This document shows positions 2,018 to 48,507 of a stretch of DNA of 64,000 nt, piece after piece. This DNA is from Phoronis australis (Eukaryota; Animalia; Phoronida). A program made the position numbers and the translations under genes. The notes under the pieces were generated by a model. It was not told the origin of the DNA and did no database searches. It was given only the letters and a program-made list of their open reading frames with translations. The DNA lies in assembly GCA_002633005.1 (NCBI GenBank), contig NMRA01000095.1, positions 724,412-788,411 of the forward strand, given 5' to 3'. How positions within the stretch are numbered: position 1 is the first letter of the stretch; every line of letters begins with the position of its first letter.

Positions 2018-5000
2018 CTGAGGAAAAAAATGAGAATACAGTGTCAAGTACTTTCACAGAGAATAATTGTATTCAGAACAGTTTGCAATCTCATGCTTTA
2101 AAGAAAACGATTGCTTACGAAACACTTTCTAGGTATTAGGTATTATGTAATATAAAAATGAAACCAATTTAAGAGAAGAGAGGGATTAACTTTCACAGTT
2201 AGAATTTGCATTTAAACACATTAATTTTGTAGATCAGTGTTTATACATTATACACATGGCTGAATCACGGAAACTATTGTGGTTACCAGATGTGACCCAT
2301 AGGTGGCGTGTTAATCATACTAATCAACAGTTATCAACAGTTTTAGAATTAAAAAAATAAAGTGTTTAAGAGGACTATAAAAATTCTGATGGAAGTCAAG
2401 ACTGCAACTCTATTACAGACTGTTATTGCAACAAAGGCAAAAATAGAGAGAGGGATAACACGGAAATATTCAAACCCTGAATGCATAGTGTGTACTTGAG
2501 TAGTGGAGCCATGGGATTGTGGTCATGTTATCTTATAACTCATTCAGCCCACATGCTGACCATAATGTTGACAGCTGGCATGGCAGTATAAAGTAAAAAT
2601 CCTTCTATTTGAGACATAAATAATTGCTAAAATTACCCGGTTTCCATTTTTCATAGTTTCACCTCCATGTCGCCAAAATTTTACCAAATGTTGTTTGACA
2701 ATAGCTACGCCATCCACGCGACGCTGGCTTTAGGAGACACACAACCCAACTATATATTTTTGGCTTAAACTTTTGAATGTTAGGATATCGCCAGTTCTCT
2801 ATCCAATAGAATTCAAGACATTTGAACCTGTCCATGTCACTGCTATCACTCCCTTGTACAATATGTATGATTTCGTTCCTGAAACTGTCCCTATATGAAT
2901 TCTAAACAAAAGCAACGCGGAGCGTCGAAATGCGCCCACGAATGCATCGCAAATGGTGTGCTTTAGGGTTGTTTATTTGTGTCATTAAAATGGCCACTAG
3001 ATCACGCAAAATACATCGAATCCGTCTGAAAACCAAAAAAATATCATTGTTTCTTTAAAAGAAAGGCATTTACCAACATTAATTAAAATTCGGCAAGGAA
3101 CTTCAGAGAAACAGAGGAAAACAAAAAAAACGAAATTGCCACTAGGGGGCACAGTGTTCACGGGATCAGTCTAAAAGTCGTCATCTTCTCTTGCTAACTT
3201 CATACAAATACACGTGCTAAATTTAATAAAGATCCTGCAGAAGATACAGGTAGAGGTGCAAAAAAAAACAAAACTGCCACAAGGAGGAGCCACAGTAGTC
3301 AAAATCGTCAGAAAATCATCTGCAACCATCCCCTTCAGAGAAAGTACATACATGCCAACTTTCACAATCATAATTAGAGTGGTTTGGTTGACAGAGGAAT
3401 GAATGCCACAAAACAGACTCAAAAACAACAAAAATGGCTATTAGGTGGCGCAAAATACCTTGAATCAATCCGAAGATGAATGGCTAGCGTCACCTCACTA
3501 ATGGATGTCTATGTGCCAAATTTTGTGGAAATCTGTGGAGAACCTTTGAAGATACAGCGATAAACGTGAGAAACTAAAATTGCCACTAGGGGGCACACCG
3601 GTAGACCGATCTGTCCGAAAGTCGTCGACGTTCGTTTTCAACTTTATATAAATACATTTGCTATATTTAATAAAGATCCTGTGGAGCGTTTAGGAGATAC
3701 TGCCATGGGCGCAAAACTGCCACTAGGAGGCGCTACAGTAGCCGAAGTCATCGGAAAATCATCGTCAACTGTATTCTTCATAGTAAGACCATACATGCCA
3801 ATTTTCACAATCATCCTTAGAGTGGTTTGGTTGTTAGAGGGGTGAAAAAAACGACTCGAAAATAGTAAAAATGGCCACTAGATGGCGCAAAATCCATCAA
3901 AGCAATCCGAAAATGGGAGGATAGCGTCAACTCATTAATAGATGCCTATGTACCAAATTTCATGAAAATCGATTGAAGACCTTTGAAGAAACAGAGGCAA
4001 ACGTAAAAAACTAAAATTGCCACTACGGGGCACAGCGGTATTCGAGTTGGTCCGAAACTCGTTGCCCTCTGTCGTTGACCCCCATAGGAACACACCTGCC
4101 AAATTTCAATACGATCCTGCAAGGGGTTTAGGAGATACATCCGCGGACGCCCAGACAAAGATGACGGCAATATGCGACCACATATAAATATGTGGGCGCA
4201 TAAAAATGTCTATTGGTAGGTAGGAAACCTGTCTCTGAGAGTGGATCTCTAAGCTGTTCTATTTTTAAGGTTAACTTAAGAAAAAAATCACTTAGACACT
4301 TTTCAATAAAATTAATATGAACATTTTTGAAAGAGAAATCAGGTTTTAGAAATTTAAAAAATTAATCTTTTTTTTCATAATCATAATTAAATTAACGTGA
4401 ATGACAACTACATCAGTGTCAAGTATTTTTATTCAAGATAAATTCTTGGTATCATTAATTACAATTTCGTAGTTATAAGGGTTTTTATAAGTCCAGAACG
4501 ACTGACCTACTATTGCGGGAATAGCTGTCCAAGATTTTAAGACCCTAAACATACACAATCAGTGAGATTAAGATATTTTTACCATATGGTGGTCAGGGAC
4601 GAATGATTTAGTCTCAACATATATCTTATATATGACGGCTAGATCAATACATGGAACTTTACACACACAGGCCATTTTCTCCTAAACTCTCTGATGCGAA
4701 AACAATGTTGAAAACCAACTCTGACATATCACCATAGTACAGGGGTGAGGTGTACCTCAATTTTGTCCACTAGATGGTGCTGATGGTCTTCGACTTCAGA
4801 AACGAACTCCTTGACTTCTCGCAACGGGTCTACTACTGTGTGGGCAATGGTCTTGTGTTGGGAGCTGTAATAAAAAGTGAATTATTACAGGTGAGATGTG
4901 TAACTCTAGAAAAATGTCCACATTTGGCCGACTGGAAATTCATATAACACTACTTATTTTCCTTGCAAAAACAGAATTTCATTTGTCCGCCATGCTGTGT

Positions 5001-8000
5001 CCTAAATCGTGAGATTTTACCTTCACATGTTGTTGAAGCATTGCTCGAAGCCATATAGTAAAGACTACTTGTCCAACAGACACAAGTACACTTGACTGAA
5101 CTGTAAAATACACGTAAGTTGGTAATCCCGTGGGTATAATGTGCTAATATTGAAAAATTGATGACATCAATAAAGTGACAGACACAATCAATCATTTAGG
5201 GGAAGTATTTGGCTTGATTGACGTGTTACAATAGCTGCGTGGGTGAATGACAAGAATCCTTCTTGAAGACATGACAGTGACAGACTTATGATGTCGACCC
5301 TTACTCATGGTTCATGGCCATTGAGTTGTCGGGGAGCACCGTCAGAGGGTGTGGGAATCGGTCATTTATCACTCCCCCCTAGGAGCCCCCTGTGGGAGTC
5401 AGGCGGCTCCACAATATCCAAACGTGTTTTGCTTTATAACTTAAAGGTTCGAGATGCAAGAAATGCAAAAATGCAATTTCTCATTATAATTTATCACACT
5501 TAAAGAAGTTGACAGAAAGTGTAAAAATATAACCCACAGCACAGGCAGCTAGGAGGATGCACGGAATTACATGCAAAAAATGCCTTTGCTAATGGAAATC
5601 ACAACTTGCTATTGGTGTACACTTTTGCAAAATACCCACGTGGCTATCATGTTGGGCTTACAAGTTAACTCTGGGTTTTCACTACTCTTTTTAACACGGA
5701 AATCATACTAGTAATGCTGAGAGGCACGATAAATCATACTAGTAATGATGAGAGGCATAATAAATCATACTAGTAATGCTGAGAGGCATGATAAATCATA
5801 CTGGTGATGCTGAGATGTATGATAAATCATACTAGTAATGATGAGAGGCATGATAAATCATACTAGTAATGCTGAGAGGCATGATAAATCATAATGGTAA
5901 TGCTGAGAGGCATGATAAATCCCACTAGTAATGCTGAGAGGCATGATAAATCATACTGGTAATGCCGAGAGGCACAATAAATCATACTAGTAATGATGAG
6001 AGGCACGATAAATCATACTAGTAATGATGAGAGGCATGATAAATCATACTAGTAATGCTGAGAGGAATGATAAATCATACTGTTAATGCTGAGAGGCATG
6101 ATAAATCATACTGGTAATGCTGAGAGACATGATAAATCATTCTTCAAATGTCCCCAGTGTGGTGACAATCCCACCACTTGAAAACTACATCAATTGTATA
6201 ATCTGTTTTTCTACCTCACAAAAGAGGAGAATTGAATCTGGGATGAGGGAATCAGCACCGCAAGGATCTTCAAGGCACTAGTGTGATCATACAAGGAAAC
6301 GTTGCTCAAAATGAAAGAAATCACAAAAATTGTCATATCACAACTTTAAGCTTCGCAAGCTAGGCAAAATTACAAAAATAATATCAGGATATTTATCAAA
6401 TGAAATTGCCAGAGTTAAGCACATGGGGCTTACCGTGTTCGGACGGTAGTTGTGCCGGGGTCATCGGTCCCCTCGATGGTGTACCACTGTGAATTGGACG
6501 TCCCCGAGGGTTGCTCGGGTACAAGGTTGGGCTTGGATGGACCAAGATTGGGATGAGATGTAGAACGCTGACGCAGCTCGGAGCGGAATACTTGAGGAAC
6601 CTTCTGAAACAAGATACACATCAAATTAACAAGACTCCAGGACAAATACACATTTTGTAGATTTTATTCAGCCAAAACCAGCAAATGGCCACAAAGCTAG
6701 CACCAGGTGGCGACAGGCTAGAAGGAAAAGGATGCCAACTCATTTTAGCCGTCATCAGGCAAACATGGGAAACTAAAAAACAACGCATCAATTTTCAAAA
6801 AACACAGGCCCATATTAATTATACTATTTTTGCGTTACCAGTTCTTCATTAGATTTTGGCATTACAAATGGACAAAAAATTAAGAGAAAAAATTACTGCT
6901 AAAATTAACATAATTTTGGTATCTGCCAGAGGCTATCCTAAAACCTTTAACATCAATTCCAATGTCACAAGTTTTATCAAATAGACTGGATCCTGTTTGA
7001 GATAAACAAATCAATACCAAGACAACTAAACAACAGATGAAAAGAGACTCCCCATAAGTCACTCAGTAGTTGTGGTTAGCGGCAAAGATCTATGAATTAT
7101 TAATTGATTGGTTTTAAGAGAAAACATATTTTTGCTAGAAACATTTTTACACAGAAATCATCAGAAACATAGCTGCATGTCGCATGTGAGCTGTCTAAAA
7201 CGAATAAGGCTGTATACTCTCACAAAATAGGTCTCATAATATTTCCTACTCATAATATTTCCAACTATGAGAGGATTTTTTTCAATTACAATTACCAACA
7301 AGAAAATGCTTCAGAGTTTGCTGTGTTTGGACAACGATAAAATTCTGGAGTCGAATATGGTGGATGTTTACATTGCCAGTGGATTAAGCTTATGGTCAAC
7401 TTATGTACACTTGGAAGCCTCACGTCTCAGAAATGGCCGACCATATTCATATGAAACTTTCAAACAGACAGCATACTTCGTGTACTGTTCTCTGAAGTGG
7501 TGTGAGGGTTTGGAATTAAATTTCTCAATTTTTGAATGATGGGCTATTAAATACAAGACTTTTGCGATTTTTATGAAAAATAGCAAAATTTTTATGTAAT
7601 GAAAACGAAAGAATAATTTAGAAAACTTTAACAGAGTTTTTGAGATTTCATCTTGAAAATCAATATCAAGCAAAATTAGGTTATGCTTTTGATACTGTTA
7701 TTATGCAATTGATAAATCTTCCTTTATGCTACATTTTACAAAAAAGGCACTGTCAGGTCACTGTTAATGTCAGATTGGTAAAAAATCAAAAATTAAATTC
7801 TAGTAAAGTTATATACATCTACTGGTCAGGGTTCAACTCTAGTTTAGCAGTGATATAGCTTACCGGTAATACACAGACTAACCTTAATCAGTTGATAATA
7901 GAAATAGAATCCTGTCAAGCTATGAACTACTATCACCAGACAGATTTTGTGAGAGTAAAAAGTCAATTCAATTTTTTGCTTTAATGGCCAGCTAAACAGG

Positions 8001-11000
8001 ACGAAATGTAGCTTTAAGATATCCACACATTTTCATAAACTAATGTCATCAATATTTGTTTATCATGCACAAAAATGATCATAAATATCTCTATCTCCAA
8101 AATATACAAAACAAACAATACCGAACACATACGCTAATTACAAGGCATTCATGAACAGTGATGGTCTCAGAACTTTTGTCCAATTAACAACCGTGGGTAT
8201 CCCAGCACGTCTGCTATCAAGTTGCTATCATGCGAGGCAGAATGGATATCTTTGCAAAAGCAAGCCATATATGCAAATATGAAGTCTGCTTATAAACAAG
8301 TATGCATGATAGTTAAATGTCAACACAGAACTCTTCCAAACAGATTAATGAATGCCTTTCATTTTGGTGATTTCACCCACAAGTAATTTTGTTGCCACCC
8401 GGAGACATGAACAGTTTCATTCCTCAATATGCCACAAACCATGTGTCTGTTGCTTCAATGCCAAGTTTTTTCCCAGCAGTCACTGGATTCCCTTTCCAAA
8501 AGCATTAGTAATGCTTGCCGATTTAGCAAACTTTGAAAAAAAAATTTCAAACTTGCTGAAAGCTTTTGAGGGTTAACAAAGGTTACTAACCATTACACTT
8601 TGCTTAGAGACTTTTTAATTAACAAAAGCTGCTTTTAAGTTAAATACCTGTGCAAATGTACGAGATATTCCATATAAAAGTTCACTTACTGATATGAAAC
8701 AGGACTATTTACATAAAATTACCATTTTTACAATAAAGGTATTTTTCTGTTTCATAGTAATTTTTTAAGTTTGAATTGAATAAATTGATAGACTGCCTGT
8801 TGTGAAGAGATGCTGTTGACATCTATAAAACTATAACTTTAAAATTACTAAAGAAATGATGTATAAAAATCTCTTACTGGTGCTAAAAGGCTTGTTTGTT
8901 CCTGAGCAATGGTTCTCAGACGATCGACCCAGTACTGGCGTTCTTTAGCATCGGCAGCTGAAAGGGATCAATGACCACCATGATAAATCAGAGCAGACAA
9001 CCAGCAACAATGGATAAAGGAAATAAGCAAACATCCAATACCAAACATTGCAGCTAACCCTGTTTTCACTTTTCAGGAAGACAAAAAAAAGTTCCGGTAC
9101 CTGGCATGCATTGTAGCAGCAACTCTTTGGAAAGACTAACGACTGTCACAGGTTTATAATCCTTGGGTCAATAAATCCAGATACCACAGGGTTTATAAAT
9201 AAATTGATAGACTAATAAGATCAATGCGGAGCTGATCTATGGACACCGGTGACTTCATGAAAAATACAAGAATATCTGGCAACTCATGTGTAAGTATTCA
9301 TGAGAAGAAATTAAATCAGATCTGATGTTGAACTCCTGTATAATAACCAGTGGGCTTTAATCCAATAAACTTCATTAAAACTATTGCAAACTATAAGTTC
9401 AAATTCTAGATAAGCTATTGATTATGAGAGCAAAATCAATTCAGCATTGATGTAACATTCTAGACACAAGCTTACACTCATACACCTGTTCACAGCCACA
9501 AAACTAAACAAAGAAGAAAGTACGAGAGAGTTCAGTTTCCACACGGCACTTCCAACCTTGGTGCAAACGATCTTTCACTTTATTTAACAACTGAAACTTT
9601 GTTTTGTCAATTTTCTCAAAAAAAAAACAAAGATCAAGAGAATGTTAATCCATATCAAGCTTTGTTAGTTGTACTTGACTATGTTATTGAACTAATCTGG
9701 CTAAATAACCGTTATTTGCAGCAAGGCCTTTGAAAAATGACAATTTTCAGGAAAAATGTGAGAAATATCTGAAGAATTAGCACACAGCATGGATTGAACT
9801 CTCGTCCTTTCATTGAAAAACCAACTATGCATGCCAAATGTGCACGTTTTTACGCCCATGCGCCAAAATGTGAAGATGTGCCTATATCTGTAATTAGCGC
9901 CAGTATGGGAAACATTACGGCAATTAGCAAGCAAGAAACAGAATTTACACACCATGTGAGAAAAGCAGGACTTATTTCTTACAAAAGTTAAAAGCTTTTC
10001 AATTGAACATGGACTATTTAAACAAAAAGTTAATAAAAGGCGATATAAGGTACGACTTGCCAACGCACACTTGTCAAATTTTGACTGAAGCTGAGATGTC
10101 AGTGCCAGTATACAAAACTTGAATAAAATTATTTCAGGAAAAAACCCATTACTTAGGACGACGCCGCATGGGTCTGAATAGGCTATATGTATGGTACCAC
10201 TGAACAACAGACAGCTCAAACTTGAAGCAGACGACAACATACGTAGAGCTATCTTATGCGGTCAATACTTAGGAATCACGTTTACATTTTTTTTGGTGGC
10301 TTGCCATTGTCACCATAACATACCGATAGCTTTCAAGATCACATGACATATTTCCTACACTCAAATTACACTCTGTCTGAACTAACGTAACTAATTGTTC
10401 CTACATCCGATTTGCTGATCTTCCGAACAAAAGTTAACAAAATCACAAAGCAGTTATTCACCACCCTATTTTCTAGTTTTCATTCTCTGAGAGAATTTTC
10501 TCTGAGAGAATTTCAAAGATAACCCTGTGAACGTCAACAACCACCATGGCAATTTTTAACCCTACTTTCACTGCTCATGTTATAGTGGTTATGGGCTGCC
10601 TAGAGGGAACTCCAACTATGTATACAAGACCTCAAGGGTAGAGGTTGGTTATCATAAATCATAGACCTCATGAACTTACTGCAGGGCAACAAGACGGCGA
10701 TTGGGTCGCATTTTCTGCTACACGGTGAGAAAAACCTGTGTGGCACACCCACGTACACGGAATGCACCACTCAGGTGGGTGACGTCTCTAATACATTGAA
10801 CAGCCAAAGGGTACCTATTTTGGTTTAACTCCCTACAAAAAGGGTTCACTTTGGGCGTTCGAAACACTGTAGACACAAGTCTAACGGTTTTTTGCATTAC
10901 GTATTTGTTGACATTTCTAATACAAAAGAATTCCTAGTTTGACAACACCACATCTCTTCATGTATTGTTTCAGACTAAACTGTTTAAAAAGTAACAACTT

Positions 11001-14000
11001 TGACCAAAAATCCCAACGAAAAAGTTAGATTTGTGTTCTTAAACCCTACAAAAGGATGGTGTTCATCAAGTCATACTCTACAACAGGCGAATTTTCCACA
11101 GAATCTCCCTACAAATGGGTCCCTTTTTTCGAGTCCATTCCTTAAATGAGTGACCACCCTAATCTTTCACCTGTACCCCACTCAGCAATGCATTCCAGTA
11201 CCCACCTGGGAAAAACAAGTCGCATATTTGATTTGAGTGAAAGCACACACCTAACCAGCAGATGAAAACAATCCTAACAGCACAAAGCCTACTATCTGGA
11301 AGTTTCATATTAATCGGATCAGCCATTTCAGAGATATCATGTCCCCATGTTAGGCAAATTTGGACATTTTTCTAAAGTCCTACATAACCTTGCTGAGTAC
11401 GGAGGCATAAGACTAGTGGTCAGCTCAGGAATTTCGACTACAACCATGTATCACAACAGAATTGCGTTATATCAGCATGGGAGTTCGCCATGGTTAACGT
11501 CTTTCAGTTTCTCATGAGGTTGAAGGACCAGCTGACAATACAAACCGTAGTATCAAATGGAAAGTAAAAGAACAAAGTTTACACTCGCAAATGTGGCGAA
11601 ACGACTTGTTCGCTTCTACTACGGATTATTTGAAATCTCTATGAACAGTATGACTCACTACCTGACGTCTTTGACAAATCACCTGCCTCACAGTTCAATA
11701 ACCGATAACGCCAGTCTACATTACAAGTGGACAGTCTATGCAATAAAAATCTGACACTCCAGCTACAATGTGGACTTGTGAAACACATGCAAATTAGTTT
11801 TATGGGGCATTAACCAATGAAAATGAAGAGAATTAACCTTCTGACCCTGAGCCAATGTGTCAATGTAATCAGGCCATAACATGGATGACACCAGAGATTA
11901 ATCTCCATTGCTGACTTGTGCTCATTCTCATGCTAACAATAATTGATACCAGTTCCATTAGACCGACAGGGCCAGATGCACAAATTGTACGAGGTAAACA
12001 AGTATCGCGTTGATGAAACAAGGAAATAGATCAGACACATGGACCTAAATAGGCACAGGAAACAACACTTGATACACAGCTGTTTGCTTTGCTTAATACG
12101 TGTTGAACTCATCTCTTCAGAATGAAATCGCACATTTTTCTCATTCATCGTTTGATGTCGTCTGTCGTAAAATTAAAGGGATCGTCTATTTTTGCCAATA
12201 ACATATATTAAGATGTCACAAGACCTATCAATCAAACCATTTCACAACAAGCTACAGTGGTAATGTCCAAGTAATATCAAATACTTTCACAAAGACAATA
12301 TCAAAGTTTTACGGTGAAATTTGTTCTACGCCAGGATCAATTTGAAAGCTGCAGAACTTGATAGCGTAAACCAAGCATTTGATGGTAGACTTTCACAACA
12401 AAGCCTGCGTCCAAATAATGCACTAGGTAATCTTCGATTAAAAACATACCTCTTAATCTGTAGATTTCACCGTTAGCAGCGTTGATATTAAATGTCATCG
12501 AATCCTCGTCAGACGGACAAATGACTGAACCCTATAATGAATGGATCACGTAACGTAACACTGTACTCAGGAGACAATATCGCTTACAACTGCAAAGAAA
12601 AGATGCACCTGTGCGATAGCAAAGTGACGACACTCGCAAATCAATACAAAGAATGAAGCCAAGACGATAGTAAACACTCATCCTAAACTCTATTTTTTCT
12701 AAAATGTCAGCAAACACAGCTTTTGTTGCGGTGTGTTTTCCAAGCAATACGCGAACAAATACAGCGTAGTAAACTCATCATTCGCTTGACTGGCATTTGT
12801 TTTGTTGAGAATAACTATGTAAAGTAAACTGGGGTTGTAATCAAAGAAACAATAAGCAAGTTTTCACTACAATTACAAGCAAGAGATTGCAACAGTTGCA
12901 CAAACAGAAAACTGTAATATGGAAATCTGGTAATGTCTGCTCAACTTTGTGGAAAACAAATGTCAAAATTGCTATTTTCTACTTATTAAGAACACACGTC
13001 AAAATGTTCAAAATTTACTCGAGTTTTGTTTTGTTAATTGTACAGTACCAACCATACTAAAACCAACAAAGAATTCCCGGATTTTTATTTTGTTAACACA
13101 ACCAATTTTATAAAATATTTGTCAGTCATATTGTGTGCTAAATTGAAAAACGCTTACGACACACAAAACTGGCAGATTCACACGAAGCTTTCAGATACTT
13201 TGCTTTGTGCACAGTTCTACAAAATGCTTCTAAGAATGTTTTTAAAATGTTCCACTTTTGCATGAGCTCTAAAAAATTGTTACATTTAGTATTTTAGTGA
13301 AAAAATTAAAAGTTGTATAAAACAAAAGCAAAATGAAAATTTAGAAAACTGTGACAGCATTTTTGAGATTTCATGTAAAACTTTTATATCTAACAAAATT
13401 TGGTCACGTTGTTGATATCATTATTTTTTCTATGAATTTTCTTGTCTTTTTTTGGTAAATGTTACTAAAACACATGGTCACATGACCCACTTAATGACAG
13501 TTCGACAAAAAGTCAAAAAAAATCTACAGGGTTTTTGCACTTTGAAAATATAAAACTAAGTTAAAATCCAAAGTTTACTAGAAATTTGGCTAAATATAGT
13601 TCAGCTTGCTGATAAGGTCCAATACAACCATAACCAAAGTTCTTGAAGTTCTTAAAAGATGAGCTGCAACCTTTAACAAGGAAATGAGTCAAAGTAAAAA
13701 GGTACATTCTGAACGACTACGAATCTATTTTTCAATTTCACAAAATTCAATATTTGAACAATACGTTCGAGGCGATCTACTCTTCGATAACCAAACACGA
13801 CCTGAAATCCTGAAAACGAAACATTCACTAAGTGATTCAAAACATTATTGACAAAACATCAGGAAATAAACCAAAAAGTCAATAAATTTCTAAATTGAGA
13901 TAAATTGATTTTTACGCCTGAGTGTACATATAATTTTAGTTATTTTTAAACACAGCATCCACTGATAGTCCAACCTGTTCCTAAGAAAAGTAGTCGTAAG

Positions 14001-17000
14001 CTTTGTGACAATACCTGTTCCACATCTCTTCCTACACCCCATCAGTAGCTTACGACAGAACGCATCGTATTTATATCCAAAAATAACGGTCGTGTGCGAA
14101 ACAAAATGTCAATCCCAAACCGAATCACTTTTTTTTTCAATGACGTAATGCCATAGCTCGTGCATTCGTCATTGCACTACACAATCAATGTAAATACGTC
14201 AACCATACACGACTAATTAGTGAGATCAACAATGGGTCAGCATACCTCATTATAACTAATTGGCCGAAAAGTGCATGGATTTATTACGCTAGTGTTTGAG
14301 TCATGTTTGATCTGGGTTTTGGTGAAAGCGTCAAGTATTGAACACAAATCAATCACAAAGCAAGGCAGGTGTAGATGGCTGGAAGGTGTGAAATATTATT
14401 TTGGGCATTGACTTAACTTGTTTGAAAGTGTTGCTCAGTGGAATGTGTATTGTAAAAACAAACTCTTTGTTCAAAACCCTCTCTATTAAAAACAAGTAGT
14501 CAAGTAGAACTCCATTTTTGCATCAAACTAACATTCTCATTCATTTTGCTACAGGGAAATATTGATTTGAAAAACATGTTCATAAGTCCCTGGCTGACAA
14601 GTGAAATTACCTTTTGTTACTTTTTTTCACAAAAACAAAGTTAAAGAAAAAGTAACATGATTTGCACAATGTATATGCAATAAAACAATGGATTTAGAGG
14701 ACAGGTCTGCCAGGGGCTTATAAGACGGGTCTGTCAGGGGCTTAGGGGACAGGGTTCTGTTTCTTGAAACGCGACTTAGGACTTAAGTAAAAAATTTGGT
14801 CTTACGCTTCACACAATTATTTCAGAAAAATAAATACATCTCACTTGGGCAAAATGCAGTTTCTGGAAAAACACACAGTTGTTTCATGCCATGTTCTCCA
14901 TGTTAAGGTCAATTTTTCAAATTAGAACAAAAATAATTGTTAAACTGTCATGGCTAACAACATGTGTAGGTTAATGCCATTAATAAAAATAGAAAGTATA
15001 AATAACTAATAATAAAGTACAATTGTCTTACAGTCCATTTTTATTGAAAACTTGATAAAATTCAGTTTCACTGTTCTGCGGTATTGTGTTCTGAATAGAA
15101 GTTTTACTTATCAATACATTGATAATCATGGTGTTCCGCAGCACTTTATTACATTTAAAACGTACATGCCAGTAAAAACATAATTTGATTATAAACTCTC
15201 CTCCTTTTAGAGTACTAAATGTTACATGCGACGTTGAAGAGACAATAAACTCGGGTACCACCAAAGAAAGCAAATTTTAATTCAAACCACTTAACTCTAA
15301 AAAACTTGGTCTCCACATATGGCTTATTCAGATGTCGGAGGTGATTTTGATGGAGATAAGTTCTAACAGTTCAGCATTGCTTCAGACATACTTGGTAAAT
15401 AAAATAACATGCCACGTTACGCCAACTTGTAGAGCGTGATCTCAAGCAATAACAAACTAACTGTTATAGTTATTTTGAAGCCTGAAAATTACACTATTTT
15501 GGGAAATAGTCTGATATAACGTGCCCGTATTTTGAGAACCAGTTTGATGTCCGTTATTTAGAGGAGAAAACTGGTTCTCAAAATTCGGGCATGCCATATC
15601 AGACCATTACCCTATTGTGATTAAGGAACAATTTAAGACCAATTTCATTACGGCACGAGGCCGAAAGGGAAAGTGAGAGTAAAGGTGCTTTGAGTGTCAT
15701 ACTTACTGCTAAGTGTAGAAATCCTCTGGGCCTCTGAGACTTGTACTCTTCTTTCTGAAAAACATCAACTCTTAGTTTAGGTTATGTAGGACCCTAGAAA
15801 CATCAACACTTAGTTTAGGTTATGTAGGACCCTAGAAACATCAACACTTAGTTACGGTTACGTAGGACCCTAGAAACATCAACACTTAGTTTAGGTTATG
15901 TAGGACCCTAGAAACATCAACACTTAGTTTAGGTTATATAGGACCCTAGAAACATCAACACTTAGATAAGGTTATGTTGGACCCTAGAAACATCAACACT
16001 TAGTTTAGGTTATATAGGACCCTAGATACATCAACACTTAGTTTAGGTTATATAGGACCCTAGAAACATCAACACTAAGTTTAGGTTATGTAGAACCCTA
16101 GAAAAATGTCCAATTTTGACCAACTTAGAAACATCATATTTCACAAAATGGCCGAACAGATTCGTATGAAACTTCCGCACAATATGCTACATGCACTGCT
16201 CAACAAAACACCACGGGGGGTTGTCTTTGAAATGTTCCACTTTTGTATGACGGCTATCAAAAAAACAGGACAAAATATCTTAAGTTACACGAAACGAAAT
16301 GATATTTCGAGCTTGAGCTCCCAACCAGAACATTTACACCAAATAAAATTTAAAAACATTATTACTAAGGTGGTTTTGCTATCAATGTTCCATTCTTTCT
16401 GACTAAATTTTACTAACACACGTTCACAGGTAACTCAATCAGTGACAAAGTGGTAAAACCTCACAAATCTCATTCTAAAGGCTTTCTACTTCATACTTTT
16501 AGTGAATTAAGATCTAGAGTTTCGTAGATAATTGCCTTAATACGCAGACTGGTCAACAACCTCCCACATGAATGTAACAACCTTCAAGACCCCAGGATGG
16601 ATACCCCAGAGACCCACCCAAGAAGTAAACAACCTCCCACCTACGACACTGCAGGTGTCCAGCTAAACAGAGAAAAGTCAGAGAACGCAAACGCACCTGA
16701 GACTCAGATTTGACATTTCTGTGAGCCACCTTGATAGGTAAAATTAAACATTTCCAGAGGCAAGAGCACGAGCACTATTCTCTTGAATTCCCTTATTGCA
16801 AATCTCATTCATCTTGTCAAGTGCATTTCGATATTAGAATCTCCCCAGTTTTAAATGGGGGTTGAGTAAAAGCCACCAACTGTGCCCTCAGGGTGCCAAT
16901 TCACATCTCAATCAGCAACACTGAGATTTCATTTACACAACCAAATGTGGCTAACTGCGCCTAACGTAAATGTTTTCCAAAATGCCAATAGAGGGGTCTA

Positions 17001-20000
17001 GTGGGAACCACCTGCCTACTGTGGCTTACCTAAAAGTACTCCGACATGCCAGTAGAAACTTCCAGGAGGAACCACTACCAACCGTAGCTTACCTCAAAGT
17101 ACTCCAACATGCCAGTAGAGGGCTCTAGTGTGAACCACCTGTCAACTGTGGCTTACCTCAAAGTACTCCAACATGCCAGTAGAGGGCTCTAGTGTGAACC
17201 ACCTGAACTGCCATCCCTTCATCACATTGGTGTACTTGCACAGCAGTCCAGACAAAGGTTGACTGCAATATAGAAAAAAAAGAAATACGGAGTCACTTAC
17301 AGGAGTTCCCGGATTTTAAGAACCAGCTTGATGCATTATTCAGTGGAGAAACTGGTTCTCAAAATGAGAGACCACTCTAAGTGCTATTGCCAGTAATAAC
17401 TCCCTAATGTATTGATAGGTGTCAGATAAAGCAGCAGCTAGGACAGACAGAGTCCCACGCAATGATAATCAGATGGAGCTGAAATCGCAACTTTCGTATT
17501 GGATTAAATCATTCAATTTATGTTTGGCAAATCTTCATGTTGAAACACTCAATGAACTCCAATCAGTAAATGATTTTATCATGTGGAAATATGATAAGAC
17601 AAAACAAGGGGTTCTATTACTAAACAATGGTTTCTAAATACGACAATAAGAAGGGGTTGGGTTATAACCCTGTAACATATGTTCATACAGAAGAACAGTT
17701 TAACAGTAAGCCACAACAATGCAAAGTAAAAACTTAATCATCAAAATATGACGTCATCGTTAGATTTCATCATGACAGGTTATTAAAAATTTACCACTTT
17801 TCCATAAAAACAACTGAAAAGATTAACCTTTTCATTTTTCAATGACACCCAGCATTGTTATGGAAACACAAATGTTTGAAAGTGTTTGGTGGTAGTTACG
17901 GTATGAAAACTTGAAAGATAAAATGTTTGTGCAGTGCATCACATCTTTTACGAATAAAAAAATGAGAAAATAAAATTTCACAAAAATCCAACACACTGTG
18001 TCCTAAATGACCCATTGCTTGTTGTGCATTTATCATTGGCTTGATTGGAGACTTGGAGACCTGAAATGATTCAGGCAGCATTCTCAATGAATGTCATTCG
18101 TTATTGTCATTCATCAAGACTACTACCCCCCCCNNNNNNNNNNNNNNNNNNNNNNNNNNNNNNNNNNNNNNNNNNNNNNNNNNNNNNNNNNNNNNNNNNN
18201 NNNNNNNNNNNNNNNNNNNNNNNNNNNNNNNNNNNNNNNNNNNNNNNNNNNNNNNNNNNNNNNNNNNNNNNNNNNNNNNNNNNNNNNNNNNNNNNNNNNN
18301 NNNNNNNNNNNNNNNNNNNNNNNNNNNNNNNNNNNNNNNNNNNNNNNNNNNNNNNNNNNNNNNNNNNNNNNNNNNNNNNNNNNNNNNNNNNNNNNNNNNN
18401 NNNNNNNNNNNNNNNNNNNNNNNNNNNNNNNNNNNNNNNNNNNNNNNNNNNNNNNNNNNNNNNNNNNNNNNNNNNNNNNNNNNNNNNNNNNNNNNNNNNN
18501 NNNNNNNNNNNNNNNNNNNNNNNNNNNNNNNNNNNNNNNNNNNNNNNNNNNNNNNNNNNNNNNNNNNNNNNNNNNNNNNNNNNNNNNNNNNNNNNNNNNN
18601 NNNNNNNNNNNNNNNNNNNNNNNNNNNNNNNNNNNNNNNNNNNGAGCCCATTTCTGATTCTGCGGTATTCACCCACAATGCTACGTGTCCAGGGGGGGCA
18701 CTTCCGACTTTGGAAGCAGTGGTACCCTGCAGCCATGGTAACTGCTATTATGAATTAAGATTATTTGCCATTTGTCCTGATTGACAGAAAATTGTTGTAA
18801 TAAGTTACAATGCAGACATCGAAAAACTTGAAAAGCCAAGTGAAGTGTTATGGAACATTTTACCTATCCAAAACTATGTCAATTGCATAATTTCCGTTTT
18901 TCTACTTCCCTTAAAGAGTAGAGTTGAATCCAGAAAGTGGGAATTTATCAATTTACTGCTCGGGAGAAAAAACCACTGATTAACTGTTGCAGCCCACATC
19001 TCAATCAAGATCTGTACATACACACTATGCATGGTCTAATTAGTGAACAAGTCACCTTACTTATTATTGTGTGTCAAGGACTGTCATGCCAGTTTGTACA
19101 AACATGTGAAGGGGGGGGGTTAATGGAAAGGAGAAACAATCATTGAGTCAGTGCCACTAGCGAAGAGCACCATTTACTATTTGTTGATAAAAGTTGGCTG
19201 ACAACAAATGTCAGACTTTAGTGTATTTTGCAGCTCCAACATCCACTAATCTTTTTCCTAACTTTGGTTTTCCATAAGAATAATACACTATAAGAATAAC
19301 ACACAACGGATGTGTAAGTAAAAAAAGCATCAACTGCAGAAAAAATTATTACCCACCACGTCAAGTCAGTTCTAAAACTATCTGGTTAAAGATGCCCGGG
19401 GGTGGGGGGAGGGGTGCATGAGTACAAAGTAACAAACAGAGTAAGTTAATAGGCTTTGTGAAACTTAATTGGCACAATAAATGCCACCAAGAAATGAAGA
19501 AACACAGTAAGAATCTAATCTGATCTGCCACAGTGTAATCATGCATGTGAGGTTTACTGAAGGTTGATTATCAGATGTATTTTTAAACTTAACCCACACT
19601 GGTGTCTTACGAATGACCACAAGATACGAGATTTAAAGTTTTACAAAATGAATTGGTTTTTATTTTAATAAATAAATTTCATTTTCTTGGCCTGAACGTG
19701 TCATACCAAAACAAGAAAGTTAGAATTGGCATTTGAAAGGGCACTAGTTGTACAGTAGCAAGTTTCAAAGCACAAGAAATAGAACCCCAGTCTCTAAGTT
19801 TGTAAAACATGGTATGAACTGGGATGAGTAACTGGAAGGCACCTTAAATGCACTGATCAGATGTGAGCTGTATGGATGAAAACAACAATCACAAACAGTT
19901 GAAACATTATTTATCACTTCATGCCAAGCAGTGTTTTGTACATTCAACAAAAAATTAAGAACAAATTCTCTTGCTAAATCACACTATTTTTCAAAGAAAC

Positions 20001-23000
20001 CATTTGAGTTACTTGTAAGGCCCCGAGAGAGCGCCTCCTATTGGAAACAAAAACTGCATCATGGTAGACTTTAGTTAGGCTCAAAGGACAATGACTGAAC
20101 AAGATTACTGACTAGATATATTCATCTCAATTATATAACCATAACATGGTTCAATCTTATTTTTCTGGGAGAAAATGGTCAAAGTGTGTTCGCCGGCTTC
20201 TAGGACATTGGTCAGTATTCTTTGGCCTTTGACCAGCATTTCGAAAATAGGGTGTCCAAAATGGGGTTCCCAATATTCCAGGGCGTCCATGATTCTGATG
20301 CGTAACCCCCCACCCCCAGCAATCCCCCCAAACACACAGATTTTTTTTACAAAAAATGCATAGACCAAGGTTTTTACATCTAAGTTTACAAAACAGCCTT
20401 CTGTAGTGAGCATTTTTACTAAAAAAAACTGTANNNNNNNNNNNNNNNNNNNNNNNNNNNNNNNNNNNNNNNNNNNNNNNNNNNNNNNNNNNNNNNNNNN
20501 NNNNNNNNNNNNNNNNNNNNNNNNNNNNNNNNNNNNNNNNNNNNNNNNNNNNNNNNNNNNNNNNNNNNNNNNNNNNNNNNNNNNNNNNNNNNNNNNNNNN
20601 NNNNNNNNNNNNNNNNNNNNNNNNNNNNNNNNNNNNNNNNNNNNNNNNNNNNNNNNNNNNNNNNNNNNNNNNNNNNNNNNNNNNGCTTTAATGTACCTTC
20701 CCTTTTTGCTAAATTTTCCTAAAAAGGCAAGGTCACGTGGCCTACTTAGTGACAGACTGGTATAAAGTCAAAAATCAAATTCTATAGAATTTCTACTTTC
20801 AGAAAATTTATTTGCTGAGGCAAATGCTATAGTTTTGAAGATAATTGGCTAAATGCAGAGACTTGTCCATAAGGTCCTACATACGCACATGCTGAGGACA
20901 CGAACAACAAACGTTAACACAAGAATACTAATAAAAACCAATAGCTACATGAAACACAGGGCTCAAAGACATTAACACCTGGTGTCAAATGCACTTTTGT
21001 TAAACCTGCCTTCACGTTTGAGTTAGTTAAACCAATTTAGAAATTTTCATTGCTTTGAATTTATTCTATGCATGTGACACCATGGCTACTCAACCACAAG
21101 GACTGCTTCTACACATAAAAACCTACAGTCTATACCTGTGTATGTTTCTAAGATTCGCTCTGAAAAAAAATAACATTAGCTTCCAAAAGTGCAGTATTTC
21201 AAAAGCGATTTCTGGCGGTATGCCAAGAATTTTAGTTAATTATAATTATTCTTACTTGCAGAGAGGTAACATGATGACAAACTACTGTATGAACTAACAG
21301 CCTGTATCTTCCTTTGTGTACTGCCTTCACATACCAACTACATAATCTATGGTGTAGACTTATACTGGTATGCACACTTCCCACAGAGATTGAGCAAATG
21401 TTCTGTTCAGAAAAAGCAAGGAGTATGTCTCAAATAACCACAGAAATTCCTGTAGGCTTCAGGTTCATTGGCTACAGTACTAACCGAAATATTCCGACAA
21501 AATGGGATGGAAGTGTTCATCACTTGGACCAATGACTGCAGACTGTATGAGAAATTCACAATCATGGTCTTCACATCAAAGTATTTTTCTTGTCATAACA
21601 GTGGAGCAAAATTTTGTTGGATTACTTTTGATGAGTACTGTAGGCTGAAATGACAACTGAGTAGAAGGCAGATGTTTTCCTAAACTTGTGAGTTGTCATG
21701 GCAACATGTAACACAATTTTAACTGAAGTCGTCACTTACTGTTTGAGACTTAGCTCCTCTTTTTCTTCAAACTCCTGAAATAGAAAAAATACCGTGTAAG
21801 CGTTAAACTCCAAACATGCACCACCTGAAGAGCACAAAACATCAGGTAAAGCCAGACTATGTAAAACCTCAAACAAATTCCGACGAAAATAATTGCCAAA
21901 ATTGATGTTTTTTTCATTTCCAAAGGTCCGTAACACTACTGTGAATGCTCAAGTGTCCTCAAAATACTGGTCAATCGAAGCTACAGTATACAAGTGAAGA
22001 CTGATAAGCCTTTTTTCTGCTAATCATTTTTCATGAAAAATTTAAGAAATGAGCTTTACTTGCCCACCATATTGTTTCCTAAATTGGTGAGAATTTACTG
22101 TGTTCTCCAACTTCCATGTTTCCAGTGGCGAGGTCAGGTGTGTGGAAGGTTAACATACCGAGTTCAACAGTGCACTAAGAAGCAAGCTATTACCAAAGTC
22201 CAAAAAACAGACAAAATTCCACTAGGATTTTGGGAGGCCATCATCTCATCCCTGCGAAACGTAATATATGGTTTTTGTAACATTCAGAATTAATATTCCT
22301 TAAATATACCTTAACCAGTTTACATACATACAAAATAGCTGATGCACACTATAAAGGCACGGGTGTGTCTTGTATATCTCANNCCCCCCCCCCCCCCAAT
22401 TTCACTTCCTACAGTAGCCTACTAGTAACAGTGGTGTATTATGCCATATCGGTAGTTTCCTGAGGTTTAAGTTAGCAGTAACCCTACACTCAGTGTTACA
22501 AGTGGCAGCCTGCACTAGGAAATCCTCATTAACATAACATAGATAAACAGAACACACTGTACTAACATTCAGACATTATGATTGGTTCCCATTGAGAACT
22601 GTTGAGTACTACTCCTTTTATTGAGAAATATTTTATGGCTTCTGGTTGTTGCAACAGTAAGTACAAGCTAAATCGATGTCTTCAATACGTGTTCGTGTTT
22701 TCCGACACACTAAAAATGACAGGAGATCAAAGAAACAAGAAAATCATTTCCTATACTTTTCCTGTTCATTCCCGCAGACATGTTAACGACAACATACAAA
22801 TCAAGGAATGCAAACTGATGTCCACACAATGATTTCTGAATGTTGATCATCATCTTTTCACAAAGGAACCTACAGGTGGCACTGAGACAAAAGGAGCAGC
22901 AGTTATTCCCTAATACAAGTCTCTTCAAAGACATGGCTCGACTTAGATTCATGTAGTTGTCCTATCTGTGTTTCAGGTGTCACAAGAGTTGTCCCAAAGA

Positions 23001-26000
23001 TATTATAAATTAACAATCTACAGAATACAGGGTGGTATATATTACTGGAACATATCTATAGGGAACTTTGTGAGACAAAATAATATTGAAAAAGAACCGA
23101 ATGATAATTTCAGTCTAAAAAAGTTTCTGTTTGCAAAAATTATAATTAGAATTCATAGAGAATGTAGGATAAGTGAATACTCCTTAATGGTTGTTCCAGT
23201 GGAAATTTCATTTGGACCAGATTTTCTTATTCGAAACAAGAGCAACGCGGAGCGGTGAAATGTGCCCACGAATGCATTGCAAATGGTGTGCTTTTAGGGT
23301 TATTCATTTGTACCATAAAAATGGCCACTAGAAGGCGCAAAAACATACAATCCATCCAAAAACAGGAACATGCCATATTTCATAAAAATCTGTCAAGGAA
23401 CTTCAGAGAAACAAAGGAAAACAGAATAAAATGAAATTGCCACTAGCGGGCACAGTGTCCGTAGGATCCGCCTGAAAGTCGTCGTCGTCGTCTGTTCTTA
23501 TCTTCATATTAATACACTTACTAAATTTAATAAAGATCCTGCGGTGGGTTTAAGAGATACAACTATGGGCGCAAAACAAAACTACCACTAGGAGGCGCTA
23601 CAGTAGTCAGTCACCATCATCAAAGGTCGTCTTCAAATCGAAAAGCTATGTGTTAATTTTCAAATGATTTGGTTGATACAGGGGTGAACGCCAAAAACAA
23701 GATTTGAAAACAGCAAAAATTGCCACTAGGTGGTGCAAAATATCTCGATTCCATCTAAAAACAGGAAGATAGCGTAATCACACCAATAGATGCCTATATT
23801 TAAAATTCTATTAAAATCTGTTGAGGACCTTTGAAGATACAGAGTTAAACGTAAAATACTAAAATTGCCACTAGGGCGCACAGCAGTAGTCAGATCTGTC
23901 CGAAAGTCATCGTCGTCCATAGTCAACATCATATAAATACACTTGCAAAATTAAGTAAAGGTCCTGCAAACAGTTTAGGAAACACAGCCATGAGCGCAAA
24001 AACAAACTGCCACTAGGAGACCCCCCAGTAGTCGAAGTCGTCAGAAAATCGTCAGCCGTCTACTTCATAGTAAAAGCATTCATGCCAATTTTCATAATTA
24101 TCCTGAAAACGGTTTGGTTGATAGATTAGTGGATGCCAAAAAACTAGAAAACAGTAAAAATGGCCACCAGGTGGTGCAAACTAGGTCGCATTCATCTGAA
24201 AACGGAGAGATAGCCATACCTCATTAATAGATGCCTATATGCCAAATTTTATGAAAATTCGATGAGGACCTTTGAAGATACAGAGGTAAACATAAAAAAA
24301 TAAAATTGCCACTAGGTGGCACACCAGTTGTCAGATCTGTCCGAAAGTTGTCGTCTATTGTTAACATCATAAAAATATACTTACTGAATTTCGTACAGAT
24401 CCTGCGAGTGGTTTAGGAGATACAGTCATAGGCGCAAAAAAACAAAACTGCCACTAGAAGGCGCCACAGTAGTCAAAATCATCGGAAAATTAATGTCAAC
24501 TTTCCTCTTCATAGTAAGAACATACATGCCAATTTTCACAATCATCCTTTGAGCGGTTTGGTTGATAGAGGGGTGGACGTAAAAAACAGACTCGAAAACA
24601 GTAAAAACGGCCACTAGGTGGCGCAAACTATGTCAAATCCATCCGAAAACAGAAGGATAGCGTCACCTCACTAATAGGTGCCTACATACCAAATTTCATG
24701 AAAATCCTTTAAGGACTTTTGAAGATACAAAGGTAAGTGTAAAAAACTAAAATTGCCNNNNNNNNNNNNNNNNNNNNNNNNNNNNNNNNNNNNNNNNNNN
24801 NNNNNNNNNNNNNNNNNNNNNNNNNNNNNNNNNNNNNNNNNNNNNNNNNNNNNNNNNNNNNNNNNNNNNNNNNNNNNNNNNNNNNNNNNNNNNNNNNNNN
24901 NNNNNNNNNNNNNNNNNNNNNNNNNNNNNNNNNNNNNNNNNNNNNNNNNNNNNNNNNNNNNNNNNNNNNNNNNNNNNNNNNNNNNNNNNNNNNNNNNNNN
25001 NNNNNNNNNNNNNNNNNNNNNNNNNNNNNNNNNNNNNNNNNNNNNNNNNNNNNNNNNNNNNNNNNNNNNNNNNNNNNNNNNNNNNNNNNNNNNNNNNNNN
25101 NNNNNNNNNNNNNNNNNNNNNNNNNNNNNNNNNNNNNNNNNNNNNNNNNNNNNNNNNNNNNNNNNNNNNNNNNNNNNNNNNNNNNNNNNNNNNNNNNNNN
25201 NNNNNNNNNNNNNNNNNNNNNNNNNNNNNNNNNNNNNNNNNNNNNNNNNNNNNNNNNNNNNNNNNNNNNNNNNNNNNNNNNNNNNNNNNNNNNNNNNNNN
25301 NNNNNNNNNNNNNNNNNNNNNNNNNNNNNNNNNNNNNNNNNNNNNNNNNNNNNNNNNNNNNNNNNNNNNNNNNNNNNNNNNNNNNNNNNNNNNNNNNNNN
25401 NNNNNNNNNNNNNNNNNNNNNNNNNNNNNNNNNNNNNNNNNNNNNNNNNCCCCCCGCCCCCCCCCCCCCACTGTAGGATCCTCGTAAAATGTCCAATTTT
25501 GGCCAACGTTAGAAAATTGTACCTCAGAAATGGCTGATGGAATTCATATAAATTTTCAGATACTATGCTTTATATATTGTTTCTAAATGCTGAATTGTTT
25601 TTAAAATGTTAAACTTGGTTATGTTAGACATCCTGTTGGTTTGCTTTAATGTACCTTCCCTTTTTGCTAAATTTTCCTAAAAAGGCAAGGTCACGTGGCC
25701 TACTTAGTGACAGACTGGTATAAAGTCAAAAATCAAATTCTATAGAATTTCTACTTTCAGAAAATATATTTGCTGAGGCAAATGCTATAGTTTTGAAGAT
25801 AATTGGCTAAATGCCGAGACTTGTCCATAAGGTACTACATACGCACATGCTGAGGACACGAACAACAAATGTTAACACAAGAATACTAATAAAAACCAAT
25901 AGCTACATGAAACACAGGGCTCAAAGACATTAACACCTGGTGTCAAATGCACTTTTGTTGAACCTGCCTTCACGTTTGAGTTAGTTAAACCGATTTAGAA

Positions 26001-48388: not shown

Positions 48389-48507
48389 ATGGCTGTGTTT
48401 CGCTCAGATCCGTGCGGGATCGCTTGCTTTATAATCACGTATGCTGCTGTAATATATGCTGATTACGTTGTCGTCAGACACATGGTACTTCCAACTATGT
48501 CCGAAAG
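48389..48507 (+). CDS. ZDHHC exon 1 ([39 protein letters not shown])
   Basis: aagATGG context, DPCG motif, TM1, GTGAGA donor. Confidence 0.92.

What the first reader, a model, noticed from the sequence alone, without database searches (positions are those of the whole stretch)
2905..4206. Mobile cassette carrying a phased array of co-oriented CTCF-consensus motifs
Seen: each internal subunit of the HINE-like element is centred on a CCACYAGRKGGC-like motif, at 2994, 3139, 3277, 3438, 3583, 3720, 3875 and 4020. Spacing is 145/138/161/145/137/155/145, a trimeric higher-order repeat of about 440 bp. Examples: TGCCACTAGGGGGCAC, GGCCACTAGATGGCGC, TGCCACTAGGAGGCGCTA. The three subunit types are diverged from each other yet all keep the motif, on the same strand. 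Known: this is the bilaterian CTCF core consensus, motif orientation sets cohesin loop anchors, and Helentron-derived HINE/DINE-1 elements often carry internal satellites. Inference: a rolling-circle element that spreads multi-site insulator/boundary modules at near-nucleosomal spacing; I do not know of such an array being described for this lineage.
Basis: partly seen in the sequence, partly recalled or inferred. Interest (0 to 1): 0.85.

Follow-up and report, generated by a model that had tools for sequence, protein, structure and literature searches.

The report
Rolling-circle transposon carrying CTCF-motif arrays
A very common non-coding jumping element in an invertebrate animal has an inner repeat in which every unit carries a same-facing match to the binding motif of the genome-folding protein CTCF; the motif was likely kept because it helps the element spread, and whether any copy would insulate host genes is untested.

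Summary
Window 2904-4206 is a non-autonomous Helentron-type element (HINE) that reads on the minus strand. A second copy starts at 23234. Depth suggests roughly 10^4 copies, and the host is a lophotrochozoan. The central array is an a-b-c trimer of 437-444 bp. With a ChIP-derived CTCF matrix, 15 of 18 units score p<=1e-4, all on one strand.

The three unit types are only 50-54% alike, yet share 12 of 14 motif letters against 46 of 128 elsewhere. The two letters that differ sit at tolerant CTCF positions, so the motif was preserved over the element's deep history.

After insertion, protection is weak: 7.9% versus 13.4% divergence (p=0.09). The motif-breaking CpG change runs at 10-18%, like other CpGs. 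Co-orientation and ~145-bp spacing are ordinary for HINE arrays.

Best reading: CTCF binding likely benefits the element, which scatters decaying sites. A host insulator or loop role is untested. Family RNA reads are about 30:1 one strand.

Ten literature searches found no CTCF-array HINE, but transposon-borne CTCF sites and Helitron motif clusters are known. The scan noted similar arrays in other elements (e1-9274448).

The parts
2904..4206 (-). Non-autonomous Helentron-type element (HINE), whole copy 1
   Evidence: Depth rises from about 40 in the flanks to 10^4-10^6 inside; variable loose ends at 4206; the 2904 end matches copy 2 at 23234
4202..4206 (-). T-run at the element's 5' terminus
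   Evidence: sequence; loose ends at 4206 with agreement 0.35-0.37
4192..4201 (-). 5' subterminal inverted repeat (10 bp perfect with 2930-2939)
   Evidence: pair I9
4171..4202 (-). 5' hairpin: subTIR plus its internal inverted repeat (15-bp arms, 93%)
   Evidence: pair I1; DNA fold
4140..4160 (-). Short, decayed GTCY-like microsatellite remnant (two units only)
   Evidence: sequence; weak
2985..4138 (.). Central tandem array, a-b-c-a-b-c-a-b, monomers 137-161 bp, trimer 437-444 bp
2994..3007 (+). CTCF-like motif, type a, decayed (p=1.1e-3)
3139..3152 (+). CTCF-like motif, type b (p=6e-7)
3277..3290 (+). CTCF-like motif, type c (p=1.2e-5); family majority has T at 3281
3438..3451 (+). CTCF-like motif, type a, decayed (p=1.0e-4); family majority has C at 3439
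3583..3596 (+). CTCF-like motif, type b (p=6e-7)
3720..3733 (+). CTCF-like motif, type c (p=1.2e-6)
3791..3818 (+). Second conserved block, shared in part by all three unit types, not CTCF-like
3875..3888 (+). CTCF-like motif, type a (p=8e-6)
4020..4033 (+). CTCF-like motif, type b (p=1.7e-5); family majority has G at 4026
2930..2939 (-). 3' subterminal inverted repeat
   Evidence: pair I9
2913..2927 (-). 3' stem-loop palindrome (6-bp stem, 3-nt loop; perfect with the family-majority letter at 2926)
   Evidence: 2926 C>T in over 99% of depth; fold
23234..24757 (-). Second copy of the family, 10 units with motifs, about 73% identical; 5' end lost in an assembly gap (24758-25449)

Best explanation
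This is a high-copy non-coding HINE-type transposon whose central three-unit repeat keeps a CTCF-type motif in every unit, likely because CTCF binding helped the copies that went on replicating, while most inserted copies appear to let the motif decay. SHOWN: HINE anatomy, high copy number, the matrix match, deep conservation of the motif across unit types at CTCF-intolerant positions, and only weak protection after insertion. INFERRED: (1) An ancestral monomer held one CTCF site, was triplicated, diverged to about 50%, and was then amplified as a trimer. (2) Host CTCF binds the sites. (3) Bound sites lie too close for a nucleosome between neighbours, so a donor array would stay open and under-methylated, which would favour access by the Rep/Hel protein of an autonomous Helentron and transcription of the element. 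(4) Selection therefore acts on the transposon lineage rather than on each insertion. (5) Rolling-circle mobilisation scatters tens of thousands of sites, of which a minority may have been co-opted as barriers or promoter sites.
For: Between types, 12 of 14 motif letters are three-way identical against 46 of 128 elsewhere (Fisher p=4e-4; any-window permutation p=0.025). The two variable letters are the two lowest-information columns of the 11-column core (1 of 55 pairs; 13 of 91 if all 14 columns count), and the letters used there are tolerated by the matrix. 15 of 18 units pass p<=1e-4. G/C positions in the motif diverge 9% (9/100) against 20% (49/243) in the rest of the unit outside the second conserved block (p=0.011), so some protection persists. 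Decay after insertion: family majorities restore this copy's damaged letters at 3281, 3439 and 4026, and C>T at the near-invariant C of the motif CpG is 10-15% at 3731 and 10-18% at 3886, while the tolerated G>A at the next base is under 8% in run X3. Depth ratios imply 5,000-17,000 element ends (rough). Family RNA reads are about 30:1 on one strand in 2 of 2 RNA runs laid, both from one study. Precedents: CTCF ChIP peaks on non-autonomous DNA transposons (PMC7182764, PMC5504073), Helitron HSE clusters bound by HSF-1 (PMC6927752), and the CTCF motif as the top ATAC motif in an annelid (PMC7854359).
Against: No binding data exist here, and the host's CTCF gene could not be checked because no genome is held. 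Overall post-insertion protection is not significant (11/140 against 80/597, p=0.086; family-fixed sites only, p=0.21), and among internal units 22-40% of all 14-column windows are as conserved as the motif. A naive test gave p=9e-6 but included degenerate terminal units and an in-window consensus. Family-level polymorphism is 3/30 motif sites against 19-28/149 others (p=0.3-1.0 on the rows shown; 17 rows hidden). A second, non-CTCF block is also conserved, so conserved blocks need not be CTCF-related. The zebrafish matrix strongly prefers C where 16 of the 18 units have T (motif position 5). That T is usual in human and fly CTCF sites is recalled, not tested. No upstream motif is present at any of 18 sites. 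No autonomous partner or empty site was found.
Confidence: 0.55

Rival explanations
1. Mobile host insulator or loop-anchor cassette: inserted arrays are bound by CTCF, stop cohesin in a fixed direction, and are kept by host-level selection.
For: Strong matrix matches, 15 of 18. G/C motif positions are about 2-fold protected. CTCF motifs are enriched at domain borders in amphioxus, echinoderms and squid (PMC10013865, PMC13317027, PMC10658181; passages).
Against: The motif-breaking CpG change is at least as common as the tolerated one. 2 of 8 sites in this copy fail the matrix threshold. Orientation and spacing are explained by tandem duplication and by ordinary HINE monomer sizes (PMC7492417). 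No orientation rule was found in echinoderms or Dimorphilus (PMC13317027, PMC7854359).
Confidence: 0.15
2. Passenger: one CTCF-like site was captured once and multiplied with the satellite. Its conservation reflects slow local mutation, gene conversion or binding by another zinc-finger protein, with no CTCF role.
For: The permutation p for the deep conservation is only 0.025. Post-insertion protection is weak. A second conserved block exists, and oyster HINE monomers also keep two shared motifs while diverging elsewhere (PMC7492417 passage). An unrelated 38-bp satellite carries the same motif in most units (L003), so such arrays arise repeatedly.
Against: GC-rich, CpG-containing DNA mutates faster here (20% against 9% at A/T), yet the motif is among the best-kept blocks between types. 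The changes between types fall on tolerant CTCF columns.
Confidence: 0.22
3. DNA-structure or rolling-circle signal: the quasi-palindromic core around CTAG is a mini-hairpin or bend used in single-stranded replication or array expansion, and the CTCF likeness is incidental.
For: The type a consensus core is a perfect 5-bp inverted repeat around three bases (2 of 18 units are perfect). A-tracts lie on one strand only (9 and 16 runs against 0). Copy 2 shows a 10-11 bp AA/TT period (p=0.014). A preprint links Helitron satellites, oyster ones included, to mechanical insulation (10.64898/2026.08.08.743475, passages).
Against: One arm position pairs in only 7 of 18 units with no compensatory change, and the conserved letters extend past the palindrome. 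Copy 1 shows no period (p=0.41).
Confidence: 0.08

Closest known systems
Cg_HINE elements of Crassostrea gigas, and Pearl/DTC84/MgE (PMC7492417: passages, Discussion part 1 of 2, supplement word search)
   Same: 5' subTIR plus IR, microsatellite, central monomers of 140-180 bp in fixed orientation, 3' subTIR plus palindrome, T-rich ends; lophotrochozoan host
   Different: Here the array is a trimeric higher-order repeat with a CTCF-type motif in each unit. 'higher-order' does not occur in that paper's main text. In its supplements the 7-mer core occurs only 54+11 times in 3.4 million characters (cells cut at 400), and the four cases shown lack the full motif.
DINE-1 and HINE-Mo non-autonomous Helentrons (PMC4067079, passages)
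   Same: subTIRs, nested IR, 3' stem-loop, central repeats, variable terminal Ts, no TSD
   Different: The subTIR is 10 bp perfect rather than 12-15. The 3' subTIR is 26 bp from the end rather than 38-60. No autonomous partner was identified here.
Helitron-borne heat-shock-element clusters of Caenorhabditis (PMC6927752, abstract and passages)
   Same: A rolling-circle element carries dense repeated sites for one host factor and spreads them
   Different: There, occupancy and gene effects were measured, the factor is HSF-1 and the sites overlap. Here the factor is predicted to be CTCF, with one site per ~145 bp. Drosophila miranda Helitron MSL sites are a further parallel (recalled; paper not held).
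Transposon-spread CTCF sites: zebrafish TDR13B and others (PMC7182764, passages and supplement parts 1-2 of 4), lamprey hAT-Tip100 #274 (PMC5504073, passages), mammalian SINEs (cited there)
   Same: Non-autonomous elements multiply CTCF core motifs genome-wide
   Different: These are vertebrates with ChIP evidence. No Helitron is named in the zebrafish supplements or in the lamprey Table 3 rows seen, and the passages seen describe no internal arrays.
Helitron-minisatellite PATC barriers of C. elegans (bioRxiv 10.64898/2026.08.08.743475, passages)
   Same: Rolling-circle internal repeats proposed as chromatin barriers
   Different: They are protein-independent, rest on 10-bp mechanics, and occur in a species without CTCF.

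Membership tests
HINE (non-autonomous Helentron) | Subterminal inverted repeats of about 11-15 bp | tested here: inconclusive
   10 bp perfect, 2930-2939 / 4192-4201; 10 of 12 over the usual length. Oyster HINEs commonly have 11-12 bp with a mismatch.
HINE (non-autonomous Helentron) | Short IR pairing with the 5' subTIR | tested here: met
   4171-4185 / 4188-4202, 93%
HINE (non-autonomous Helentron) | 3' stem-loop palindrome 8-35 bp from the end | tested here: met
   2913-2927, 9 bp from the end; folds with the family-majority letter at 2926, not with this copy's own letter
HINE (non-autonomous Helentron) | T-runs at both termini, no target-site duplication | tested here: met
   TTTTT and TTT ends on the minus strand; flanks show no duplication. 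No empty site available.
HINE (non-autonomous Helentron) | Microsatellite after the 5' IR | tested here: inconclusive
   Only two GTCY-like units at 4140-4160
HINE (non-autonomous Helentron) | Central tandem repeats, non-coding, dispersed at high copy number | tested here: met
   The only frame of 90 codons or more inside is a 91-codon stop-to-stop stretch, which was not searched.
HINE (non-autonomous Helentron) | Ends shared with an autonomous Helentron (Rep/Hel) | not testable with these tools
   No genome held
CTCF binding site | Core motif match | tested here: met
   15 of 18 units at p<=1e-4 with a zebrafish ChIP-derived matrix
CTCF binding site | Upstream (M2) motif; optional even in vertebrates | tested here: not met
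   All 18 sites score below zero with both upstream matrices at gaps 2-15
CTCF binding site | In vivo occupancy or footprint | not testable with these tools
   No ChIP- or ATAC-labelled run among the 8 listed; 5 have no library record
Insulator / cohesin loop anchor | Insulation or enhancer blocking, orientation-dependent | not testable with these tools
   No contact data
Insulator / cohesin loop anchor | Purifying selection on inserted sites | tested here: inconclusive
   7.9% against 13.4% (p=0.086); G/C only p=0.011; motif CpG decays at 10-18%

The most novel reading that the evidence does not exclude
A rolling-circle transposon has built a dedicated multi-CTCF module. It uses the host's architectural protein to keep itself open and transcribed from its own 5' end, and it has become the main supplier of CTCF sites (several 10^4 motifs) in a spiralian genome, so its insertions redraw chromatin barriers.
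Probability: 0.25. Interest if true: 0.82.

Novelty: new variant of a known kind. Interest (0 to 1): 0.52.

Why it matters
How CTCF works outside vertebrates is open, and reviews say spiralian data are nearly absent (PMC10658181, PMC10658182). One family that supplies several 10^4 same-facing motif units in arrays would rival the 62,987 motifs called in amphioxus (PMC10013865) and the 27,633 peaks in lamprey (PMC5504073). It offers a natural experiment: thousands of oriented insertions of graded decay with which to ask whether CTCF blocks extrusion directionally in a spiralian. It also warns that motif-enrichment counts in such genomes may be driven by one repeat. And it suggests that transposons can keep architectural-protein sites for their own benefit before any host co-option.

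Tried and rejected

Two-motif pattern scans found 0 loci in viral contigs and 3 in metagenome contigs. None of the 3 aligns to the element.

No empty-site joint was among the 15 joints shown (1,834 not shown), and flank contigs of both samples run into the element. Current mobility is therefore not shown either way.

No RNA holder of this exact stretch was listed. Only 4 of 10,674 and 5 of 8,976 RNA reads were at least 99% like this copy.

I set aside the first within-type test (20/252 against 375/2015, p=9e-6) as inflated by terminal units and a small in-window consensus. redid it in two ways: against the family majority (5 c-to-a segments), and on 12 of 18 units after dropping 2994, 3139, 4020, 23325, 23440 and 23585.

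Helical phasing of the sites was rejected. The mini-hairpin reading was not supported. Pfam gave nothing for 6 other frames of the window. The look-up of earlier findings by sequence gave only an irrelevant bacterial hit. The RNA library's strand type could not be controlled.

Full report
OBSERVATION. The eight sites, their spacing (145/138/161/145/137/155/145) and the quoted examples are as described. TRF finds periods of 437 and 441. A second copy, about 73% identical, starts at 23234, holds ten more units and ends in an assembly gap. The 18 units fall into types a, b and c in strict rotation, 69-74% identical within type and 50-54% between types. The trimer therefore predates the split of the two copies. 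The consensus pattern gives 20 window matches against 0.65 expected. With a ChIP-derived zebrafish matrix read from the supplement of PMC7182764, 15 of 18 units reach p<=1e-4, all on the + strand: 6 of 8 in this copy, with 2994 and 3438 decayed. No upstream motif is present. The matrix over-calls elsewhere in the window (48 hits against 11.8 expected, many of them G-runs), so p-values are optimistic. Density is still 5.3 per kb inside the elements against 0.8 outside.

WHAT IT IS. Read on the minus strand, 2904-4206 has the layout that PMC4067079 and PMC7492417 give for HINEs. In order: a T-run, a 5' subTIR (4192-4201) folded with an internal IR (4171-4202), a weak GTCY remnant, the central repeats, a 3' subTIR (2930-2939), a 3' stem-loop (2913-2927) and a T-run, with no target duplication. 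The subTIR is short (10 bp perfect), and no autonomous partner could be sought. Contigs of four DNA runs (one study, two samples) give depth near 40 in the flanks and 619,000 at 2926 in X1, with variable loose ends at 4206. The ratios imply 5,000-17,000 ends and 13,000-22,000 units at each of five motif-proximal places. The tool warns that summed contig depth is not a copy number, so these are orders of magnitude only. A ZDHHC3-like gene at 48389-63527 groups with molluscan and nemertean proteins (96/95 support, 22 rows), so the host is a lophotrochozoan. The tree does not place it more finely.

IS THE MOTIF SELECTED? Deep level: the three type consensuses share 12 of 14 motif letters against 46 of 128 elsewhere (Fisher p=4e-4; permutation for any 14-column window p=0.025). 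The two differing letters are the two lowest-information columns of the 11-column core (1 of 55 pairs; 13 of 91 with all 14 columns). Shallow level: against the family majority, five c-to-a segments differ at 11/140 motif positions, 12/132 positions of a second conserved block and 80/597 others (motif against the rest p=0.086). G/C positions alone give 9/100 against 49/243 (p=0.011), and family-fixed sites give p=0.21. Among 12 internal units, 22-40% of 14-column windows are as conserved as the motif. Family-wide, 3/30 motif positions are polymorphic at 8% or more against 19-28/149 others. This is not significant; 40 rows were shown, 17 were hidden, and alignment seeding favours conserved blocks. 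The motif's CpG loses its near-invariant C in 10-18% of depth at 3731 and 3886, similar to the changes listed at several other CpGs, while the tolerated G>A is under 8% in X3. Some of this may be inherited subfamily variation: 23723 and 24164 share the change. This copy's damaged letters at 3281, 3439 and 4026 are restored in the family majority. In short, conservation is clear in the element's ancestry and weak after insertion.

HOW IT LIKELY WORKS. Selection on the replicating lineage fits this pattern best. CTCF exists in annelids and molluscs, and its motif tops open chromatin in one annelid (PMC10658182, PMC7854359), but the host's own gene was not checked. With 20-bp sites, 117-141 bp lie between neighbours, less than a 147-bp nucleosome core (established knowledge). 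A fully bound array would therefore be open DNA rather than phased nucleosomes. I infer that this keeps donors accessible to the Rep/Hel protein and to polymerase. One hint comes from RNA: in two raw RNA runs from one study, about 800 reads per million fall on 3705-3900 at 80% likeness, about 30:1 with the first mate on +, and almost none come from this copy. If the library is of the usual dUTP type, the RNA is the minus strand, the element's own 5'-to-3' direction. The strand type was not controlled. A few highly expressed host transcripts, or selection against + insertions (AATAAA 2 and 3 times on + against 1 and 0 on minus), could give the same bias. All steps from binding onward are inferred.

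Co-orientation comes free with head-to-tail repeats, and oyster HINE arrays also have a fixed orientation and 140-180 bp monomers. Spacings are 13.1-15.3 helical turns, so there is no helical phase. Orientation-dependent anchoring was not found in two echinoderms (PMC13317027) or in Dimorphilus. It is weak in amphioxus (just over 52% convergent; PMC10013865) and unresolved in spiralians (PMC10658181). A boundary role for some copies stays possible but is untested.

RIVALS. Passenger or other binder (0.22), host insulator (0.15), hairpin or mechanical signal (0.08). The hairpin fails at one arm position in 11 of 18 units without compensation, and a 10-11 bp AA/TT period appears in copy 2 only (p=0.014 against 0.41).

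NOVELTY. Ten full-text searches listed no paper describing a CTCF-motif array inside a HINE, Helentron or Helitron. The library lacks most subscription journals, and repeat databases were not searchable. Each ingredient is known: HINE central satellites; CTCF sites on non-autonomous DNA transposons in zebrafish and lamprey; Helitron HSE clusters; Helitron minisatellite barriers. Oyster HINE arrays hold the 7-mer core only sporadically in the part of the supplement that could be read (cells cut at 400 characters, so the uncut arrays may bear on this). The scan's own notes hold similar arrays in other elements (unchecked). I class it as a new variant of a known kind. Papers were seen as passages unless stated: PMC7492417 also Discussion part 1 of 2 and a supplement word search; PMC7182764 also supplement parts 1-2 of 4; PMC6927752 abstract and passages. 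Papers only listed by the searches were seen as listings. The D. miranda example and the T preference of human and fly CTCF motifs are recalled.

VERDICT. The feature is real. It fits HINE on four structural tests, with subTIR length and the microsatellite inconclusive and the partner untested. CTCF binding is likely, benefit to the element is the best reading (0.55), and host insulation is not shown. Interest 0.52.

Noticed in passing
window 3705-3900 (family-wide RNA reads, runs X5 and X6): Reads from other copies of the family are about 30:1 on one strand at about 800 per million; several alleles are commoner in RNA than in DNA contigs (3753, 3763, 3768), suggesting a subfamily or a few loci dominate.
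   Followed up: partly
window 2001, 4767, 6700: Solo CTCF-like sites, all on +, flank the element; 2001 and 4767 lie in low-depth DNA, and 2001 matches the 12-mer consensus exactly.
   Followed up: partly
window 16976-17205: A 64-bp tandem repeat with CTCF-matrix hits at 17111 and 17175.
   Followed up: no
window 20685-23239 and 25643-28218: A 2.6-kb direct duplication (93%) flanking the second HINE copy and its gap, each arm with one CTCF-matrix hit (22868, 27830); could be a segmental duplication or an uncollapsed haplotype.
   Followed up: no
window 48582-49757 and 50031-51206: A 1,176-bp 100% identical direct repeat in the first intron of the ZDHHC3-like gene; possibly an assembly artefact.
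   Followed up: no
window 48389-63527 (+): Eight-exon ZDHHC3-like palmitoyltransferase gene, 261 residues recovered without stops, used to place the host.
   Followed up: yes
L003:1176-1853: An unrelated 38-bp satellite (17.8 copies) in an AT-rich metagenome contig carries the CTCF-like core in most units; 12 matrix hits in the locus, all on one strand.
   Followed up: partly
L001 and L002: A GC-rich repeat in two metagenome contigs with clustered CTCF-like 15-mers 32-144 bp apart; unrelated to the window element.
   Followed up: no
window 3791-3818 and its equivalents in a and b units: A second conserved block, the highest-depth part of the segment laid; its binder or role is unknown.
   Followed up: partly
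window 2535-2748 and 4889-5102: Two further moderate-copy repeats close to the element (depth 2,000-3,400 and 335-750 against about 40).
   Followed up: no
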